A stretch of DNA of 63,882 bases, filler included, from Rhabdomonas costata (lineage: Eukaryota): NCBI GenBank assembly GCA_019059605.1. It is 52 parts of 52 records of this genome, joined end to end, with 100 filler letters (N's around TTAATTAATTAA, not from the genome) between each part and the next. Parts side by side here need not be neighbours in the genome. Positions count along the whole stretch, not along the records: positions 11,080 to 12,210 come from JAHMHO010027079.1; 51 more parts are not named here. The stretch is one strand, 5' to 3'. Each line of letters begins with the position of its first letter. The first letter of the stretch is position 1. Shown here piece after piece: positions 10,604 through 62,758 of this stretch. The notes beneath the pieces were generated by a model. The model saw only the letters and a list, made by a program, of their open reading frames with translations, made no database searches and had not been told where the DNA came from. The position numbers and the translations under genes are program-made.

Positions 10604-11166
10604 CTAAGGCAGGCCCATGAGAAGTCCCTGAAAGTGTGCAGCGAAGGCTTTGAAAGAAAGGGCTCTCAGGCTTTACATCTAAACCTGAGCCGAGGAAAGA
10701 GATCATAGCCACCAAAGAAATGTCTCAGCTGCCGGTACGCCCGCAACACACATAAGACATAGGGAGAAGCCCATTGCATCCGTCCCATTCCACGACGACA
10801 AATGAAATCATATTCCTCTCGTTTCTCGTTCCGAAGCTCCTGCAGGGAAAGCCGCAGTCTTTCGTTGTGAGTAGGGTTCTTCCGTGGGGACGACTGGCAT
10901 CACGACGGTTCCAGCCAGCGGACAAATGGTCGCTGCAGAGCTTCCGTTTCGGAAAAGGTGATTTCGATCCCCACACAAANNNNNNNNNNNNNNNNNNNNN
11001 NNNNNNNNNNNNNNNNNNNNNNNTTAATTAATTAANNNNNNNNNNNNNNNNNNNNNNNNNNNNNNNNNNNNNNNNNNNNTGTGTTGTTGTATCAGGATAT
11101 AGTCCAAGTTATTGAATCATGACTTATTTATATTAAATAATAAAGTCGTTGTATCCTGATACAACG

Positions 11167-11259
11167 ACTTGGACTATATCCTGATACAACGACTTTATTA
11201 TTTAATATAAATAAGTCATGATTCAATAACTTGGACTATATCCTGATACAACAACTTTA
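11167..11259 (+). repeat. 31-bp direct repeat, two copies (one mismatch) with a 31-bp spacer, plus a partial copy at 11153-11170
   Basis: acttggactatatcctgatacaac(g/a)acttta occurs at 11167-11197 and 11229-11259. Confidence 0.85.
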
Positions 11260-11346
11260 ATATTTTATTTTTCTTTTTTTTTGGTCTTAAATTTTATTTT
11301 TTTAATATATATCATATTTAATCTTGAATCAAATAATTTATTATTT

Positions 11347-11460
11347 TACGATTTAGACCAGTTACACCGTAATCCGAAACTTGATAATTCTTTATAAAAA
11401 GATTTATCAATTGTGACTTTACAGTGGTTTGTTAAGGAGGATTACGACTCCTATTTATTC
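11347..11460 (-). ncRNA. Putative omegaRNA (reRNA): scaffold ~11367-11460 plus guide ~11347-11366
   Basis: Immediately 3' of the Fanzor stop is a hairpin AGGAG-tcgtaatc-CTCCT (11452-11435). Its loop CGTAATC is complementary to GATTACG (11374-11368), forming a pseudoknot. A second hairpin TTGATAA...TTATCAA spans 11410-11381, and the scaffold ends in ...GGATTACGG at 11367. Confidence 0.7.
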
Positions 11461-12210
11461 TTTTTTATTTTTCTATGCTCTTGATGTATATCCCTCTACT
11501 TCCATTCACATCACGATCTATGTGAATTCCACAATTTGTGCAATTATAACTTTTTGATCCACCTAGATCTTCTTTTATTGATCCACACATACTGCACATT
11601 TTACTCGTGTATTTCTCGTCTACACATTTATATTTTACTTCTCGTATTCGACACTTATATTGGAGTCGTTGTCTAAATTCATATAATCTTATTATTTGAG
11701 CCATTTTTTTCGTCCTATCTTGTAAATTATTCACGTTTTTATTACTTATTATACCTTTGGTACTTAAATTCCCAATTAGTATTTTTTCGTAATTTGACGT
11801 TAAATAATTTATTGTTTTCCAATGTATTTCATTCATCAAATTCCTTATTTTTTTATTACATCTTGATTCTATCTTCTTCCTTTTATGATATGGTACTTCT
11901 TTTCTTTTTTTAATTTCTTCACTTTTGTCGATATATTTATTCATTGTTTGCGTTATATTTTTCCCTATTTCAACTACTTTTTTTTCTGTTATTCCTGTTA
12001 ATAATGTTCTTATTCCTGGATCTAAACTTATTACCTTATTTTTTTTCTTTTTCTTTTTCTCTATTTCTACGTTTTCAGACGTATATAAGTAATATTTATT
12101 ATTTTGTAATATTTATTATTTTTATATACTAATCGACTGTCCTTTGTAATAGTCGAAAAATCAAATTTTTGACCATTATAATATCCAGTTACTGTTCCCA
12201 ACCCCAACAC
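11367..12210 (-). mobile_element. Right part of an IS607-like/Fanzor2 transposon, right end inferred at 11367
   Basis: A TnpB/Fanzor ORF followed by a structured 3' region ending in NGG, as expected for an IS607-family end. The contig is far more AT-rich than its neighbours. The left end and any transposase lie outside the contig. Confidence 0.6.
11465..12201 (-). CDS. tnpB: Fanzor2 / IS607-type TnpB RNA-guided endonuclease, 5'-truncated by the contig end, with one frameshift at 12089-12122
   Basis: The frame stays open upstream of the listed ATG (11944) to 12112, adding ...KNKVISLDPGIRTLLTGITEKKVVEIG (RuvC-I D at 12020-12022). It continues through HWKTINYLTSNYEKILIGNLS (G at the canonical RuvC-II E site), VDEKYTSK (shifted E at 11615-11617), a CSMC...CTNC zinc finger and IDRDVNGSRGI (RuvC-III D at 11510-11512). 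Upstream of the duplication another frame reads LGTVTGYYNGQKFDFSTITKDSRLVYKNNKYY. Confidence 0.93.
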
Positions 12211-17200: not shown

Positions 17201-17246
17201 NNNNNNNNNNNNNNNNNNNNNNNNNNNNNNNNNNNNGTGGGTTGGG

Positions 17247-17459
17247 TGAAATGCCGTTTTCTATGCCGTTTCGAGTCTCCTTATTTATGGAAAATCGATA
17301 CGCCGATAGAAAATCGAACGGAAAAATGTGGAAATGGACAAATGAAATGCCGTTTTCAAATGCCGTTTTCGATGGAAAACCGATATGTTTATGGAAAACC
17401 GAACGGAAATAATGTTGAATAATTATGTTAAATATATATAATGTTGAATAATTATGTTA

Positions 17460-17496
<37 letters not shown>

Positions 17497-18358
17497 GTTT
17501 TCTAATTTTTTTAACCTTATAAAGTATATAGAATTTAAAATATATTAAATATTTACATATATAAATATGTATTTTACAATTTGTAAACTTAAATATGTAT
17601 CTCAAAATATGTCTAATACTCAATACACATATTATATAAATATGCATATATATAATTTATTTATGTAAAAATTTTATATATAATGTTCTACCCAACACAT
17701 ATTTATACATTAAAATAAATACAATTACAAAAAAAAACAATATATATCTCAAAACAAACAAATACACACGTTATATTATATATAATATAATCTTTTTATT
17801 AGTGTATATAATGTATGATAATACAACTGTTTTTTTTGCTCCGAATACACAACTTATATGTAAGTATATGCATAGTTTTTTTTAGCCCATTTGGGCATGT
17901 TTATTTATGCTTAGCCCATTAGGTTTAGTATTCTTCTTCTCTAGCCGTGCAAGTGCAACTTTTCTAACATTTATTCTCGGGACATTATCAATTAGCTCTC
18001 GTACGGACAGTTTTACTCGCATCCTATAGTGGTGATAGAGTAACGCCTCAATGCATGTCCTCACTGCTGCCGCATAGCATATACCTACAAATACAGAGAG
18101 ATTAATTTGATAAGAGATCTAGAGAGAAAGAGTGATACGAGAGTAAAAAGAATTTTTTCATTACTTTGATCAAAGAGATTACAGAGTGTATATCAATGCT
18201 TAGTTGAGCGTAACCAAGGTTTGAAATGCCATTTTTGATGCCGTTTCGAGTCTCTTCATTTATGGAAAATCGATACGCCGACGGAAAATTGAACGGAAAA
18301 ATGTGAAAATGGGCAAATGAAATGCCGTTTTCAAATGCCATTTTCGATGGAAAACCGA
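17247..18358 (+). repeat. Pair of 137-bp direct repeats (17247-17383 and 18222-18358) flanking an extremely AT-rich core
   Basis: Hand alignment gives 11 mismatches in 137 bp with no gaps and a period of 975 bp. Each copy contains AAATGCCGTTTT sub-repeats. Confidence 0.9.
17882..18084 (-). pseudogene. Papain-like (C1) cysteine protease fragment
   Basis: After a ttgtag acceptor the frame reads (G)ICYAAAVRTCIEALLYHHYRMRVKLSVRELIDNV, resembling papain GSCWAF...IE......LSEQELVDC. It stops shortly afterwards. Confidence 0.45.
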
Positions 18359-20093
18359 CCACAACAANNNNNNNNNNNNNNNNNNNNNNNNNNNNNNNNN
18401 NNNNNNNNNNNTTAATTAATTAANNNNNNNNNNNNNNNNNNNNNNNNNNNNNNNNNNNNNNNNNNNNTCCCAGCCCAGCGCCCTCTGCTCCCCCCGGGAA
18501 CCTGTCGGAGCAGCGCTTCGCCGAGGCTCTGTCTGTATTGGAGCCCGTGAAAGGGGCGGGCATCCCACCACGCACCCCCACGCGAGTTCCCGTGGCGCAG
18601 GCCAGTGGTGAGTGCGCTGGATTCCTCCTCCACGGGTAATTTTGTATTTTGAATTACGTGCTCCTGATACGTGCGGGTTGTCAAGACCGGCTTTCTTTTT
18701 TTCCACAAGTGTAAAAACAAAAATGACGCCATCATTCAGGGCGAGTTTCAGTGGACAAAAAGGAGAGGGGATGAGCATTGTGCCGTCTTGTGGACATTCG
18801 ATTCGGGCAGGCAGTTTGGGCAGGAGAATTTCAGTTAAAAATCCTGTATAAGACCCAGACCTTGCGAGTGTTCGAAGGCCTCAGTGTTTGGGATTTCTTT
18901 TTACGAGCAGGAGTTTACCTTTAATGAACATGGAACTGAGGGATGGAGAGCGCATCATCTGGTCTGCTGATTTCTTGTGTAAATGACGTGCTCGTGATGT
19001 TGTTCATTGATGACGATGGGCCGCTTCGTCTAACCTTTGCTGCAGTTTTTGTAGTACATCCGTAAAGAACTACTCACAGTTCTATGTGAAGTGTAGTTCT
19101 GTACAGGTGCACTACTGAAATTTTTCAAGTTCGCAAAAATAAATGGCATATAAAATTTCAAAAATAGTAAGAAGAAAATGTGCCTTATCGAGTTCATTTC
19201 GGGGACCCCCTATTACGGTGCTCTGATCCAGGGTATGGATGCATTGAGGGTGTTGCGCCGGTGGAGTGGGGCGCGCCCACCCACACAAACATGCGCGAAG
19301 GGCACGTGCATTGCCACCTAACCCCTTGCGAGGTCTTCTGCCATGCCATTCTGTTTTAACAGGTGGACGAGACGTTCACCTTGTCCCAAAAATGGGTCCC
19401 TAAAAATGCACTCTAATTGGAGCGGTCCAAAAAATACACTTGATTAAGGGGGGGTCCCCCAGAACACCCCAGCTTGGGTTGAAGGGATCGCCGCTGAAAA
19501 GAGCGAGAGCTTTTGCTTTGGGTGGAGGTTGAAGTGTGTGTGCGTGTGGCTCGAATGGTTTGGCGCTGATCAAGGTACTGTGAGCAAACCCACAACACNN
19601 NNNNNNNNNNNNNNNNNNNNNNNNNNNNNNNNNNNNNNNNNNTTAATTAATTAANNNNNNNNNNNNNNNNNNNNNNNNNNNNNNNNNNNNNNNNNNNNTG
19701 TGGGTTTGGTGGAGTTGAGGAGGACTGGACCTGCACGCGATGTCCCTGCTGATGTTGGGGACCAGGTACCGCATTGACAAGGTGATGGGCTATCCCAGCC
19801 CATCACCTTGTCAATGCGGTACCTGGTCCCCAACATCAGCAGGGACATCGCGTGCAGGTCCAGCCCTCCTCAACTCCACCAAATCCGCGCCTACCAGCCC
19901 TGTAACCGGTCGCTGGAATGAACCACGTTTTAGTTGAAGTTGACCTCACGTTTCTCCTTTTGAGGAAGAGAAGCTCCCGCTGAATCAGTGGTAGTGCAGT
20001 CACAGCCTTATGTGCAGTCCCTCCTCAACTCCGCTTTGTTCTTCGCCTCCCCGTCTTCCCGGAAAACTGACCCTCCCTTCCTACCTCTCTCAG

Positions 20094-60100: not shown

Positions 60101-62758
60101 CTTGTGTGAAGCACATAGTGCCTTGGCTGACACCACTTTTACGTATTTTGTGTTTTCGCTCTTTCTCGTCTGCGTGCCAGCCATGCCATCTTNNNNNNNN
60201 NNNNNNNNNNNNNNNNNNNNNNNNNNNNNNNNNNNNTTAATTAATTAANNNNNNNNNNNNNNNNNNNNNNNNNNNNNNNNNNNNNNNNNNNNTGTTTGTT
60301 GTGCAGGTGAGCCAGCTGCTGCACCTCCCGGTCCTTCTCCTCCAGCTTTGCTCGCAGCACGCTCACCTGCACAACGGAAGTACACTGCTCTCCCATTCGG
60401 CGTGACGGTACCCTCGAATGGGGGTAGGAGCATTAGAGCACTTATTTTCAAATCCTACGCTATATAGGTGAACTGGAGAATAACCTGGGTTCCGCAAGCA
60501 ACAACAGCGACGACAACAAAAAATCTTGGCACACTGGCGTCAGGAGAGAGACGATACTGCTTCGGCCGAGGCCGCACTGAGAATCTCCCAAACTTGCCCG
60601 GAGTCTCTATGCTTTATAAGTTGAGACCCTTGAGTTTTTTCCTAACTACCCGGGTGAAGTTCTGGTGAGCCAGGCCTTCCAGCTGCGGGCACAAGGTCAA
60701 CTCTGAAATAAGCCGTTAACAGTAATCTGCAAAAGAAGTGGGGGGTGTGGGCAAACACGCGACCTGCAGTCCAGACTCTGTGCCTTCGTACCGCTGCCGG
60801 CCGTGCTCGAAGATGAGGTCGTCGACCTTATTTTCGCGAAGCTCCTGCTGGAGTTGCGTCGCAGCTGAGGGTCACACCGCAGTGGTATGGAGGTGAGGGA
60901 AAGGTGAGACTAGCCTAGAATTTACCGCGCAAACACTGGTCAGTTGTGTACGAGTTGACAACTTTACCTCTTATCTGACCTGTCTCGCACGCACGAATCA
61001 AACATCAAATAGAACCAACCAGATGCTGACGAGGAGGGGTTGGGCCCAGTGGCACACTAACAGATCTCTGTAAGCTCGTTGGCATCCCGCTACAGCAAAA
61101 TCCAGAATCGTTCACAGAGCTCCAGCATCTCCGAGGCAAGCGCATGGTTCCCAGGTAACAGCGATAGTTCTAGTACAGCAAAAAAATGAGGCAGCCTTCT
61201 CCCAAGTATTCCGTATCGTCGAGATCGCTAGATTGCCATGAATCGTAGAAACAGCAAGATCAATTTCTCCAATTGTAGAGGGCCACTCTAACCCGATCGG
61301 AGCTCTGAACGGGGCCTGGGGCCGGGATTTTTCCTAACGCCGCCTCTGTTTGAGATTCCGGTTCACAACAAATGCCACAAATTCCATTGCATTGCAATAG
61401 GCTGCCTCGCTTAAACACAAAANNNNNNNNNNNNNNNNNNNNNNNNNNNNNNNNNNNNNNNNNNNNTTAATTAATTAANNNNNNNNNNNNNNNNNNNNNN
61501 NNNNNNNNNNNNNNNNNNNNNNTAATTACGTAAAATATTACGAAGGCTCGGCTTAAAGGCTTGGCTTAGACATACGTCTTATGATATATGTTGCGATTAT
61601 CGTAAAATAGTTATTGCGCAATTGCTTGTTTCAACGCAGATACAGATGTTGTCAATTGCTGAGCAACAAGTTTGATATCTTGTGATGCGATCATAACTGT
61701 CAGTTGTTGAACAGTTTATTCTTTTGTAAGACGTTCGACTTTTTTGTCAATTCTCTTTTTTGACCGTTGAATACGATTCTTTGTCGTAGTATGGCATACA
61801 TTTGAAAATTTCATCTCTTATTTCGTGTGGAATTTTTGGTCCGTTTCTGTCGAAAATCATCAGATCGATAAATGTCTAGTTTTGTTCTCTTTCAACATCC
61901 GAGGTAGGCAGGGGTGCGGATCCCGGTGCGGCCACCCCACAGTGGCTGCCCGAAGTCATAGAGATGAGCGTTGTAGCCTCCCCTCCGTGAGTCCTACTCG
62001 AGGGTGGGGTTTTCTCTGGGCGAGTCCCCATCCCCTGCCTCCAGGGTTTGTTGTTGTTTCCTAACTCTTTGCCTTTCGCACACTGCGACTCCCGACAAGT
62101 ACAGGAGGTTCCCAGAGGGGCCTCGGTCGGAGTGTGTGGGCGTTTATGGGAGTGGACTCCTTTGTAGTTGCTGCTGTTGTCTTGTTTCATCAGTGTCTTC
62201 CTTCATTGACTGCTTGAAAGCTTTTGTTATTGTTCCTCCCTTCAAACTGTACTTTTTTCCCGCACTCACGTTCTCCGCTTCTCTTTGCATTTGTGCGGCT
62301 GTTGTGTGCGCCGGACTTTGAACACTGGTGTGTCATTAGTATGTTGGTACCCTTCTCTTTCAACATCATCATACATATTAAGAGCGTAATATATATAATA
62401 TTCTTCATTATCATTCTGATCATCGTAATAATCGTAATCACTGTCAGGATTATATTATCCATCACATTCGTAGTACGTTCCTTCGAACATTGTTGTGTGT
62501 TATGATGCTGTAGTTTGCAGTATCAATTGCTTTTGAAAATTATAGTGTATCAACAATTGCAAAATAATATTATTTCAATTTTTATGTATATAAATAAATT
62601 ATATTCCATAAAAACAATTTATAATACATATTTCTGTATATTACTACTTGTNNNNNNNNNNNNNNNNNNNNNNNNNNNNNNNNNNNNNNNNNNNNTTAAT
62701 TAATTAANNNNNNNNNNNNNNNNNNNNNNNNNNNNNNNNNNNNNNNNNNNNGTGTTTG

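What the first reader, a model, noticed from the sequence alone, without database searches (positions are those of the whole stretch)
11347..11460. Pseudoknotted omegaRNA scaffold ending in ACGG, with a predictable guide
Seen on the minus strand: AGGAG-T-CGTAATC-CTCCT ... TTGATAAATCTTTTTATAAAGAATTATCAA-GTTTCG-GATTACG-G | TGTAACTGGTCTAAATCGTA. The 7-nt loop of the first hairpin pairs perfectly with GATTACG ~70 nt downstream, which is notable for a GC-containing motif in such AT-rich DNA. Known: TnpB/Fanzor omegaRNAs form a pseudoknot with the nucleotides just before the guide, and IS607 ends terminate in GG. Inference: the element ends at 11367, the guide is TGTAACTGGTCTAAATCG..., and the scaffold is compact (~95 nt).
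Basis: partly seen in the sequence, partly recalled or inferred. Interest (0 to 1): 0.88.

Follow-up and report, generated by a model that had tools for sequence, protein, structure and literature searches.

The report
Giant-virus Fanzor2 guide RNA scaffold

Summary
The window is 52 unrelated ~1.1-kb contigs joined by spacers. The finding lies in one AT-rich contig (11080-12210, 25.7% GC).

On the minus strand this contig holds the C-terminal 215 aa of a Fanzor2/IS607-type TnpB. Its closest solved structure is mimivirus L79 (ApmFz2, PDB 9b0l, E 1e-23). A 98-nt non-coding tail follows the gene.

In the tail, a 5-bp hairpin (11452-11435) carries a loop, CGTAATC, that pairs perfectly with GATTACG (11374-11368), just before a terminal G (11367).

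In 69 distinct homologous tails, mostly from giant-virus and metagenome contigs:
- The same loop-to-end helix covaries: 86% of cells are paired, 5 of 7 pairs show compensatory changes, and slid controls give 33-45%.
- 68 of 69 tails end in CGG.
- Copies with different flanks lose similarity within 2 nt of CGG in 44 of 48 pairs.

This matches the published ApmFz2 omegaRNA architecture and the pseudoknot reported for IS607 TnpB. It is a new member of a known kind.

Caveats: the nuclease gene here is cut by the contig end and frame-shifted by a 17-bp tandem duplication. The RNA's 5' end, its expression, the guide length and the TAM are all inferred. The scaffold is among the shortest in the family.

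The parts
11465..12112 (-). C-terminal 215 codons plus stop of a Fanzor2 / IS607-type TnpB gene. It covers RuvC-I Asp, the rearranged catalytic Glu, RuvC-III Asp and the CxxC...CxxC zinc ribbon.
   Evidence: Pfam PF07282 (E 1.8e-19) and PF01385 (E 2.6e-10). 71% identical to residues 246-457 of P0001. PDB 9b0l_P 'TnpB-like protein L79', E 1.1e-23. D31, E166, D201 and four Cys are invariant in 27 sequences.
12070..12210 (-). Upstream piece of the same gene in another reading frame, running off the contig end.
   Evidence: 81% identical to P0001 residues 220-251. About 219 N-terminal residues are missing because the contig ends at 12210.
12089..12122 (.). Exact 17-bp tandem duplication that shifts the reading frame of the nuclease gene.
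   Evidence: the repeat finder family D5: two 100% identical copies at a spacing of 17. Both frames carry the same NNKYY stretch of the homologue.
11367..11452 (-). Conserved omegaRNA scaffold core, 86 nt from stem 1 to the terminal G. The true 5' end of the RNA is unknown and may lie further upstream.
   Evidence: The 3'-end profile hit ends at this boundary (E 1.3e-5). Covariance model R1 matches 11359-11456 on the minus strand at 48.1 bits, but the window's row is one of the 30 the model was built from, so that match follows by construction. Family alignments A2 and A4.
11435..11452 (-). Stem 1: AGGAG (11452-11448) pairs with CTCCT (11439-11435), closing an 8-nt loop.
   Evidence: Sequence. 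A hairpin at this place recurs in the family with compensatory changes in 3 of 5 stem pairs.
11440..11446 (-). Pseudoknot 5' strand, CGTAATC, inside the loop of stem 1.
   Evidence: 7 of 7 Watson-Crick pairs with 11374-11368. Family covariation.
11381..11410 (-). Terminal hairpin (13 bp, one bulged A, loop TTAT). Its 3' arm plus the following GTTT match the family's subterminal motif (..ATCAAGTTT).
   Evidence: The fold forms this hairpin. In relatives the same 3' motif is repeated in inverted form near the left end.
11368..11374 (-). Pseudoknot 3' strand, GATTACG.
   Evidence: As above. This 6-mer type (GATTAC) is unique among the 69 scaffolds, and the loop has changed with it.
11367..11368 (-). 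Terminal GG of the right end: the last conserved bases, and the IS607-type crossover dinucleotide.
   Evidence: 68 of 69 distinct scaffolds end in CGG. Copies diverge here.
11347..11366 (-). Predicted guide, i.e. the flank sequence TGTAACTGGTCTAAATCGTA. The start is inferred from homology; the 20-nt length is assumed.
   Evidence: The first variable position after CGG in relatives. ApmFz2's guide is given as nt 1-21. No RNA data.

Best explanation
The region is the right end of an IS607-like insertion element of a giant virus (Imitervirales-like, AT-rich). It encodes the omegaRNA (reRNA) scaffold of the element's Fanzor2 nuclease.

Shown here:
- The ORF is a Fanzor2 homologue with an intact catalytic triad and zinc ribbon in the part that is present.
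- The 98 nt after the stop codon carry the family's conserved layout. In order: a 5-bp stem 1; an H-type pseudoknot (7 bp here) between the stem-1 loop and the bases just before the terminal G; a hairpin in the 60-nt connecting loop; a GTTT-type linker; and a CGG end.
- In relatives, the similarity between copies stops at CGG.

Inferred:
- The RNA is transcribed through the right end into the flank.
- The pseudoknot forms the core that the WED/RuvC groove of the protein grips, as in the ApmFz2 structure.
- The roughly 16-21 nt of flank starting at 11366 act as the guide.
- The complex cuts an element-free copy of the site next to a short G-rich TAM. That TAM is GGG in ApmFz2, and the left ends of relatives begin with GGG. 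Cutting there favours retention or spread of the element.

This particular copy may be inactive, because its nuclease gene is frame-shifted in the assembly.
For: Protein:
- Pfam OrfB_IS605 plus Cas12f1-like TNB.
- Best solved relative is ApmFz2 (9b0l), E 1.1e-23. D31, E166 and D201 align to D324, E467 and D501.
- 211 homologues of 378 aa or more, the best 71% identical.
- 22 viral loci, 12 of them on contigs tagged GVMAG.
- Bacterial genomes reach only about 26-35%, apart from a few low-GC contigs labelled as MAGs.

Pseudoknot:
- RNAalifold on A2 predicts only this helix: 6 pairs, 5 of them with compensatory changes.
- A4 holds 69 distinct scaffolds chosen by a 3'-end profile alone. There 86.0% of pseudoknot cells are paired and 5 of 7 pairs change on both sides.
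- The five core pairs hold in 62-67 of 68 sequences.
- Whole-structure covariation score is 0.439 against 0.176 for shuffles (0 of 500 reach it). Slid controls give 33-45% paired.
- The exact complement of the fixed-register 6-mer is present near the stop codon in 42 of 69 scaffolds, against 5.4% in the cross-locus control and 4.1% for shuffled 6-mers.

Boundary:
- 48 pairs of related scaffolds with different flanks were compared. The alignment ends exactly at CGG in 32, at +1 in 9, at +2 in 3 and at +6 to +10 in 4.
- 68 of 69 scaffolds end in CGG.

Element type:
- Relatives L045 and L043 carry a divergent MerR-HTH plus Resolvase ORF.
- 15 of 15 mapped left ends start with GGG.
- 13 of 13 elements with both ends mapped share a 9-23-nt subterminal inverted repeat.

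Literature:
- The ApmFz2 omegaRNA has a pseudoknot between its 5' region and nt -4 to 0. The catalytic Glu is rearranged and the TAM is GGG (PMC11832414, passages).
- The pseudoknot is required for IS607 TnpB activity and is conserved in Fanzor2, and the invariant flank base is part of the scaffold (PMC10711439, passages and section 25).
Against:
- No second copy of this element, no empty site and no left end are available. The contig is 1131 bp, no genome is held, and the flank 24-mer has no exact match in viral contigs.
- The nuclease gene is truncated and frame-shifted, so function in this copy is doubtful.
- In the fixed register, 27 of 69 scaffolds lack a perfect 6-mer complement. By eye, most of these pair in a register shifted by one, or with a G-U pair. 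One subgroup pairs through the terminal GG instead.
- 10 loci with at least 188 nt downstream gave no hit to the 3'-end profile and were not assessed.
- The covariance model recovered only 19 matches in 93 sources, and the 30 sequences it was built from match by construction.
- Alignment A2 was picked with a rule that required a pseudoknot, so only A4 counts as an unbiased test. A4's 3'-end profile was itself built from A2.
Confidence: 0.9

Rival explanations
1. A relic. The sequence is an omegaRNA gene by descent, but in this copy it no longer works, because the cognate nuclease gene is broken. Alternatively, the break is an assembly error.
For: A 17-bp exact tandem duplication splits the homology to P0001 into two frames. 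The contig stops inside the gene.
Against: The scaffold itself is intact: stem 1 has 5 of 5 pairs and the pseudoknot has 7 of 7 Watson-Crick pairs. The C-terminal 215 codons are open with all invariant residues present. A short-contig assembly can create such duplications. Another intact copy in the same virus could supply the protein in trans.
Confidence: 0.3
2. The hairpins are Mimiviridae-type transcript-end signals (palindromes at which viral mRNAs are cut and polyadenylated), not parts of a guide RNA.
For: In Mimiviridae, polyadenylation occurs at hairpin-forming palindromes that end transcripts (PMC4402537, abstract seen in the listing). Two hairpins follow the stop codon here.
Against: A transcript-end hairpin does not explain why the loop of the first hairpin covaries with the last bases before the element boundary, 60-370 nt away. 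It also does not explain why that distal strand always sits directly before CGG. The two roles could coexist.
Confidence: 0.03
3. The conservation reflects only DNA signals for the IS607 serine recombinase at the right end, with no RNA role.
For: The ..ATCAAGTTT part of the tail is repeated in inverted form near the left end in 13 of 13 elements with both ends mapped, as expected of recombinase-binding sites. The terminal GG is the crossover dinucleotide.
Against: The last 6-7 bases before GG vary (21 different 6-mers in 69 scaffolds). By my reading of the 15 left-end sequences printed (not computed), they track the stem-1 loop and not the left end. This is the signature of RNA pairing. The homologous pairs are seen in the ApmFz2 cryo-EM structure.
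Confidence: 0.04
4. Chance complementarity in AT-rich DNA.
For: 0.9% of simulated 130-nt sequences show a comparable feature, so the window alone is not conclusive.
Against: The feature recurs at the same two places, with different sequences, in dozens of relatives.
Confidence: 0.01

Closest known systems
ApmFz2 (Acanthamoeba polyphaga mimivirus L79 Fanzor2) with its omegaRNA, PDB 9b0l (PMC11832414)
   Same: - Same protein family: E 1.1e-23 over residues 300-508.
- Same catalytic triad with the Glu moved about 50 residues towards the C terminus.
- A pseudoknot between a 5' stem-loop region and the bases just before the guide.
- The invariant G:C pair and the neighbouring U:A or C:G pair of this family sit where the paper places G(-192):C(-2) and C(-191):G(-3).
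- A G-rich left boundary in relatives matches the GGG TAM.
   Different: - The ApmFz2 scaffold is 205 nt with long stem-loops. Here it is 86 nt from stem 1 to the end (98 nt from the stop codon), with one internal hairpin.
- The predicted pseudoknot helix is longer here: 7 bp against pairing with nt -4 to 0.
- Protein identity is low.
- Here the gene is incomplete, and there is no biochemical or structural evidence.
IS607 TnpB reRNA, e.g. ISXfa1 of Xylella fastidiosa (PMC10711439)
   Same: - The guide RNA is encoded at the right end and runs past the transposon boundary.
- A pseudoknot between an apical loop and the roughly five bases next to the guide is needed for activity.
- The invariant flank base of the dinucleotide crossover is part of the scaffold.
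- Relatives of the window's element carry a MerR-HTH plus Resolvase TnpA.
   Different: The ISXfa1 host is bacterial and its reRNA is about 150 nt. The window's relatives lie in giant-virus contigs. Bacterial homologues found here are only about 26-35% identical.
ISDra2 TnpB omegaRNA (IS200/IS605)
   Same: A pseudoknot next to the guide forms the scaffold core and is gripped by the WED domain (as summarised).
   Different: It has a canonical RuvC-II Glu, a Y1 transposase, and a scaffold that ends exactly at the transposon end. Its TAM is TTGAT.
Fanzor1 (SpuFz1) omegaRNA
   Same: A eukaryotic TnpB-derived RNA-guided nuclease with its guide encoded at the element end.
   Different: The SpuFz1 omegaRNA lacks the pseudoknot.

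Membership tests
Fanzor2 / IS607-type TnpB nuclease | RuvC fold of OrfB_IS605 type plus a C-terminal zinc-ribbon (TNB) domain | tested here: met
   PF01385 E 2.6e-10 and PF07282 E 1.8e-19, both above their curated cut-offs. Four Cys are invariant.
Fanzor2 / IS607-type TnpB nuclease | Rearranged catalytic Glu: E467 of ApmFz2, in the motif before TSK..C, with no Glu at the canonical RuvC-II place | tested here: met
   E166 of the fragment is invariant in 27 sequences and aligns to E467. The canonical place reads IGNLS. D31 and D201 align to D324 and D501 (residue numbers from the paper).
Fanzor2 / IS607-type TnpB nuclease | Complete protein with the N-terminal extension, REC and WED domains | tested here: inconclusive
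   Only residues matching about 220-457 of P0001 are on the contig, and they sit in two frames because of a 17-bp duplication.
Fanzor2 / IS607-type TnpB nuclease | Encoded by a eukaryote or a eukaryotic virus | tested here: inconclusive
   The contig is unplaced: 1131 bp, 25.7% GC among contigs of about 50% GC, and no genome is held. Relatives lie on giant-virus contigs up to 1.15 Mb, 12 of 22 tagged GVMAG.
omegaRNA (reRNA) of TnpB / Fanzor2 | Encoded at the 3' end of the nuclease gene and running to the element's right end | tested here: met
   The conserved tail starts within about 13 nt of the stop codon and ends at the family's CGG boundary.
omegaRNA (reRNA) of TnpB / Fanzor2 | Pseudoknot between an apical loop and the bases adjoining the guide | tested here: met
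   7 Watson-Crick pairs in the window. Family covariation: 86% of cells paired and 5 of 7 pairs compensatory in 69 scaffolds. RNAalifold predicts the helix.
omegaRNA (reRNA) of TnpB / Fanzor2 | Copies of the element diverge directly after the scaffold, which is where the guide begins | tested here: met
   Met in relatives: 44 of 48 pairs end within 2 nt of CGG. It could not be tested for the window's own element, because no second copy was found.
omegaRNA (reRNA) of TnpB / Fanzor2 | The RNA is made, binds the nuclease, and directs TAM-dependent cleavage | not testable with these tools
No biochemical data exist for this clade.
IS607-family insertion element | Serine-recombinase TnpA (MerR-type HTH plus Resolvase domain) next to tnpB | tested here: inconclusive
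   Present and divergent in relatives L045 and L043. Absent from other relatives of about 1.66 kb. The window's contig ends before this position.
IS607-family insertion element | A matching dinucleotide (GG) at both ends, and no long terminal inverted repeats at the very tips | tested here: met
   Right end: GG in the window and CGG in 68 of 69 scaffolds. Left end: GGG in 15 of 15 relatives, but not present in the window.

The most novel reading that the evidence does not exclude
The window, together with its nearest relatives L023 and L024 (61-64% protein identity), defines a naturally minimal Fanzor2 guide scaffold. It is about 85-105 nt: stem 1, one hairpin and a pseudoknot (7 bp in the window, about 5 bp in L023 and L024). 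That is less than half the 205-nt ApmFz2 scaffold. If the real RNA has no essential part upstream of stem 1 and the clade's nucleases are active, this would be the shortest natural Fanzor2 scaffold I am aware of, but I ran no literature search for scaffold lengths. It would be a ready-made compact chassis for editing tools.
Probability: 0.35. Interest if true: 0.4.

Novelty: new member of a known kind. Interest (0 to 1): 0.3.

Why it matters
The case shows that a reader of raw sequence can correctly call a pseudoknotted guide-RNA scaffold and its guide boundary.

The survey made to test it also adds comparative support for the Fanzor2 pseudoknot across 69 distinct giant-virus-type elements. 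So far that pseudoknot was known from one cryo-EM structure and from manual annotation. The survey further shows:
- The bases before the terminal GG are free to vary as long as the loop follows.
- The right-end recombinase motif overlaps the scaffold.
- Scaffold length ranges from about 50 to about 400 nt.

The practical value is modest. Short natural scaffolds like this one may interest people who engineer compact Fanzor2 editors. Nothing here changes the current picture of how these systems work.

Tried and rejected
- Own genome: none is held.
- Earlier notes of this scan: none by place or by sequence.
- Rfam: no family reaches its gathering score anywhere in the window. At E up to 10, the only match over the finding is rox2 at 18.5 bits against a gathering score of 55, taken as chance. 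The microRNA-like matches all lie on the flank palindrome.
- Single-protein scan of viral contigs: no relative. Only the alignment-based scan worked.
- Phage records by blastn: no match.
- Covariance model R1 (stem 1 only, 150 positions): only 19 matches at E <= 0.01 in 93 sources. That is too insensitive for a census, so I used a 3'-end profile HMM instead.
- Empty-site search: the 24-nt flank has no exact match in viral contigs.
- Search for elements with the same pseudoknot sequence: 3 matches, all in unrelated DNA of 41-66% GC with no hairpin context, rejected as chance.
- The heuristic hairpin/pseudoknot finder mis-assigned several loci, e.g. L013, L017, L018, L030, L034 and L084. It required a pseudoknot, so I do not use its counts as evidence.
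- Identity of the other contigs: 9 long ORFs gave only two matches, U-box just above its curated cut-off and VTT below it. The host was not identified.

Full report
**What the window is.** The window is not one locus. It consists of 52 pieces of 1125-1133 bp joined by runs of N around TTAATTAATTAA. The finding lies in piece 11080-12210, which has 25.7% GC. All but two of the other pieces have 48-60% GC. The exceptions are 17237-18367 (28.7%) and 61523-62651 (39.9%). No whole genome is held for the window, and earlier notes of this scan hold nothing on it. Everything about this element therefore has to be learned from 1131 bases and from relatives elsewhere.

**The observation.** On the minus strand the stop codon of an ORF ends at 11465. 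After 12 bases comes:
- AGGAG (11452-11448)
- T (11447)
- CGTAATC (11446-11440)
- CTCCT (11439-11435)
- 24 unstructured bases
- a 13-bp hairpin with one bulged A (11410-11381)
- GTTTCG (11380-11375)
- GATTACG (11374-11368)
- G (11367)
- TGTAACTGGTCTAAATCGTA from 11366

The loop heptamer and the distal heptamer are perfect reverse complements.

Taken alone, the feature is only moderately unlikely. 173 of 20000 simulated 130-nt sequences with the contig's first-order composition had a comparable hairpin-loop complement. The nested minimum-energy fold of the 98-nt tail has z = -3.1.

The geometry is that of a classical H-type pseudoknot: stem 1 of 5 bp, 1 unpaired base, stem 2 of 7 bp, no base before the 3' arm of stem 1, and a 60-nt connecting loop that holds the second hairpin. 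That reading of the geometry is mine.

**The gene.**
- The ORF 11465-12112 (215 codons, stop to stop) matches Pfam OrfB_IS605 and the Cas12f1-like TNB zinc ribbon.
- Among proteins of 378 aa or more, 211 relatives were found, most of those listed 430-480 aa long. The best, P0001 (457 aa), is 71% identical.
- The closest solved structure is 9b0l_P, 'TnpB-like protein L79', at E 1.1e-23 for the fragment and 1.5e-42 for P0001. This is the Acanthamoeba polyphaga mimivirus Fanzor2 of PMC11832414.
- That paper (passages read) names the catalytic triad Asp324, Glu467 and Asp501, with the Glu shifted 50 residues from its canonical TnpB place. In the alignments these are D31, E166 and D201 of the fragment. 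All three are invariant in 27 family members, as are the four zinc-ribbon cysteines. The canonical Glu position reads IGNLS.
- The gene is incomplete in two ways. The contig ends inside it. In addition, an exact 17-bp tandem duplication at 12089-12122 puts the stretch matching P0001 220-251 and the stretch matching 246-457 in different frames. I cannot tell whether this is a real lesion or an assembly error.

**Relatives and their setting.**
- An alignment-based scan found 22 loci in IMG/VR, 12 of them on contigs tagged GVMAG and some on contigs up to 1.15 Mb.
- It found 293 relatives in metagenome contigs, of which 80 were fetched.
- In prokaryotic genomes the family reaches only about 26-35% identity (Dehalococcoidia, Caldilineaceae and others). 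The exceptions are a few low-GC contigs labelled as bacterial or archaeal MAGs that carry the viral-type tail.
- In relatives L045 and L043 the nuclease gene is preceded by a divergent ORF with MerR-type HTH and Resolvase domains, which is an IS607-type TnpA.
- Elements measure about 2.0-2.3 kb, or about 1.66 kb without room for that gene.
- The family is therefore the giant-virus branch of IS607-like elements carrying Fanzor2.

**The boundary.** Many relatives occur as several copies in different surroundings.
- Local alignment of the region after the stop codon ends at ...CGG again and again.
- The boundary was then set independently with a 3'-end profile. Among 48 pairs of related scaffolds with different flanks, the alignment stops exactly at the final G in 32, one base later in 9, two later in 3, and 6-10 later in 4. 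The last four appear to be chance similarity of the flanks.
- Nine same-locus duplicate pairs were skipped.
- 68 of 69 distinct scaffolds end in CGG and one ends in CGT.
- In the window the profile places the boundary at 11367.
- Because IS607 recombines within a matching dinucleotide, and the invariant flank base is part of the scaffold in ISXfa1 (PMC10711439, section 25), which of the two G's belongs to the 'element' is a matter of definition. The variable sequence, and hence the presumed guide, starts at 11366.

**The pseudoknot, first test.** A heuristic that looked for a hairpin loop complementary to bases before a CG gave 30 tails of similar size. MAFFT aligned these cleanly at both ends (A2). 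On A2, RNAalifold predicted one structure only, the long-range helix between the loop and the last bases. It has 6 pairs, 5 of them with compensatory changes. My own counts gave 89% of pseudoknot cells paired. These 30 were chosen by a rule that demanded such pairing, so this test is biased.

**The pseudoknot, second test.**
- I built a profile of the last 32 columns only and searched the region after the stop codon in all 103 sources. 82 had a hit, 79 reached the end of the profile, and 69 were distinct. The profile columns came from A2, so this selection is not fully independent of the first rule. It does not use the pairing.
- Of the 21 without a hit, 11 have fewer than 115 nt of downstream sequence. 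The other 10 (L007, L017, L020, L022, L030, L035, L038, L040, L054, L087) have at least 188 nt and were not assessed further. Three hits (L025, L091, L093) did not reach the profile end and were dropped.
- The 69 tails were aligned from just before the stop codon (A4), with no reference to the pairing.
- On A4 the pseudoknot helix has 86.0% of cells paired, and 5 of 7 pairs change on both sides. The five core pairs hold in 63, 67, 67, 62 and 64 of 68 sequences. The two outer pairs hold in 39 of 68 and 45 of 65.
- For stem 1 plus the pseudoknot together, the covariation score is 0.439 against 0.176 for shuffles (0 of 500 reach it). Sliding the 3' partner by 1-3 columns drops pairing to 33-45%.
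- Rows that MAFFT misplaced at the 5' hairpin (for example L096 and L099, the CCGCT-loop group, and L015, whose hairpin lies before the extracted start) count against the structure in these figures.

**A stricter test.** I asked whether the exact complement of the six bases before GG occurs between 30 nt before and 100 nt after the stop codon. It does in 42 of 69 scaffolds. The cross-locus control, using other loci's different 6-mers, gives 221 of 4094 (5.4%). Shuffled 6-mers give 4.1%. By eye, the 27 misses mostly pair in a register shifted by one base, through a G-U pair, or, in one subgroup, through the terminal GG. I did not quantify this. There are 21 different 6-mers among the 69 scaffolds. 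The window's GATTAC is unique, and its loop has changed with it.

**Loci outside the tested set.** Some loci that played no part in building the profile show the same arrangement. Three copies in a contig set labelled Methylomonas MAG, one labelled Nitrosopumilaceae MAG, and one labelled Rickettsiales MAG (31% protein identity) all have it. The last has an 8-bp loop-to-end match (read by eye).

**Comparison with what is known.**
- The ApmFz2 paper states that the first 45 nt of the 205-nt scaffold form a pseudotriplex and a pseudoknot with positions -4 to 0. Base-specific contacts go to G(-192):C(-2) and C(-191):G(-3).
- Counting the final G as 0, the family's invariant G:C pair lies at -2 (30 of 30 in A2, 63 of 68 in A4). 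The neighbouring pair at -3 is U:A or C:G. The helix found here is therefore the one seen in the structure; that equivalence is my inference.
- The NAR paper shows that the pseudoknot is required for ISXfa1 TnpB activity and annotates it in Fanzor2 RNAs.
- Fanzor1 lacks it.

**What differs here.** The main difference is size. The scaffold measures 98 nt from the stop codon to the end, against a family median of 159 and a range of 52-395. From stem 1 to the end it is 86 nt. Only L015 (72) and L023 (84) are shorter, and L088 (98) and L024 (104) are close (heuristic). ApmFz2's scaffold is 205 nt. The true 5' end of the RNA is unknown.

**Mechanism and rivals.**
- Best reading (about 0.9): this is a right-end-encoded omegaRNA. 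Its pseudoknot core is held by the nuclease, and its guide is the flank from 11366. It directs cleavage of element-free sites next to a G-rich TAM. All 15 left ends mapped in relatives start with GGG, the TAM reported for ApmFz2.
- The ..ATCAAGTTT part of the tail recurs in inverted form near the left end in 13 of 13 elements with both ends mapped. The same DNA therefore probably also serves the recombinase. This explains part of the sequence conservation but not the loop-to-end covariation.
- Mimiviridae end their mRNAs at palindromic hairpins (PMC4402537, abstract in the listing). That could apply to the hairpins here as well, but it too does not explain the covariation.
- This copy may be a relic (about 0.3), given the broken gene.

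**What could not be done.**
- No RNA data were available.
- No own-genome search was possible.
- No empty site or second copy was found.
- Supplementary files of the papers were not seen. They may hold the ApmFz2 and other Fanzor2 RNA sequences and TAM data, which would allow a direct base-by-base comparison.

Noticed in passing
window 1-63882: The window is a chain of 52 separate contigs of 1125-1133 bp, joined by N runs around TTAATTAATTAA. Neighbouring pieces are unrelated, so context outside 11080-12210 says nothing about this element.
   Followed up: yes
window 11083-11255: A large palindrome (79-nt arms, 97% complementary, 15-nt spacer) sits at the contig end, about 110 nt beyond the scaffold. 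It is built of repeated GTTGTATCAGGATA-type units and gives sub-threshold microRNA-precursor matches in Rfam. It could be an assembly fold-back, a repeat of the virus, or a Mimiviridae-type transcript-end hairpin.
   Followed up: partly
window 12089-12122: An exact 17-bp tandem duplication shifts the frame of the Fanzor2 gene. Both frames keep the same NNKYY stretch of the homologue.
   Followed up: yes
L045, L048, L050, L058, L061, L062, L004, L018, L002, L081, L084, L043, L044, L030, L035 (left ends): All 15 mapped left ends begin with GGG, preceded by T in 12 and A in 3. GGG is the TAM reported for ApmFz2. This fits insertion into, or retention at, TAM-bearing sites, with the crossover in the last two G's.
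   Followed up: partly
L045, L058, L061 and others; window 11375-11393: The 3' arm of the terminal hairpin plus the GTTT linker (..AAAGAAATATCAAGTTT) recurs in inverted form 20-30 nt inside the left end, with 9-23-nt matches in 13 of 13 elements. The recombinase's subterminal repeat and the guide-RNA scaffold therefore share the same bases. No chance control was run for the 9-nt cases.
   Followed up: partly
L010, L013, L014, L036, L039, L041, L042, L074: This subgroup has a stem-1 loop containing CCGC(T), or CTGCT in L042 and L074. Its tail ends in AGCGG and seems to pair through the terminal GG itself, which is a register shifted relative to the rest of the family (read by eye).
   Followed up: no
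L107-L109, L127, L106, L174 (genome contigs): Contigs labelled as bacterial or archaeal MAGs (Methylomonas, Nitrosopumilaceae, Pararhizobium, Rickettsiales) carry this Fanzor2. All except the Pararhizobium one (L106) also show the viral-type tail. GC is 31-41%, and there are three copies with different flanks in the Methylomonas bin. They may be giant-virus contigs binned with cellular genomes.
   Followed up: no
window 17237-18367: The other AT-rich contig (28.7% GC) has similar ORF-like stretches (..GFPSK.AFENGISF.HFHIFPF..) at both of its ends on the same strand. This is a direct repeat at the two contig ends. No relation to the Fanzor2 contig was seen.
   Followed up: no
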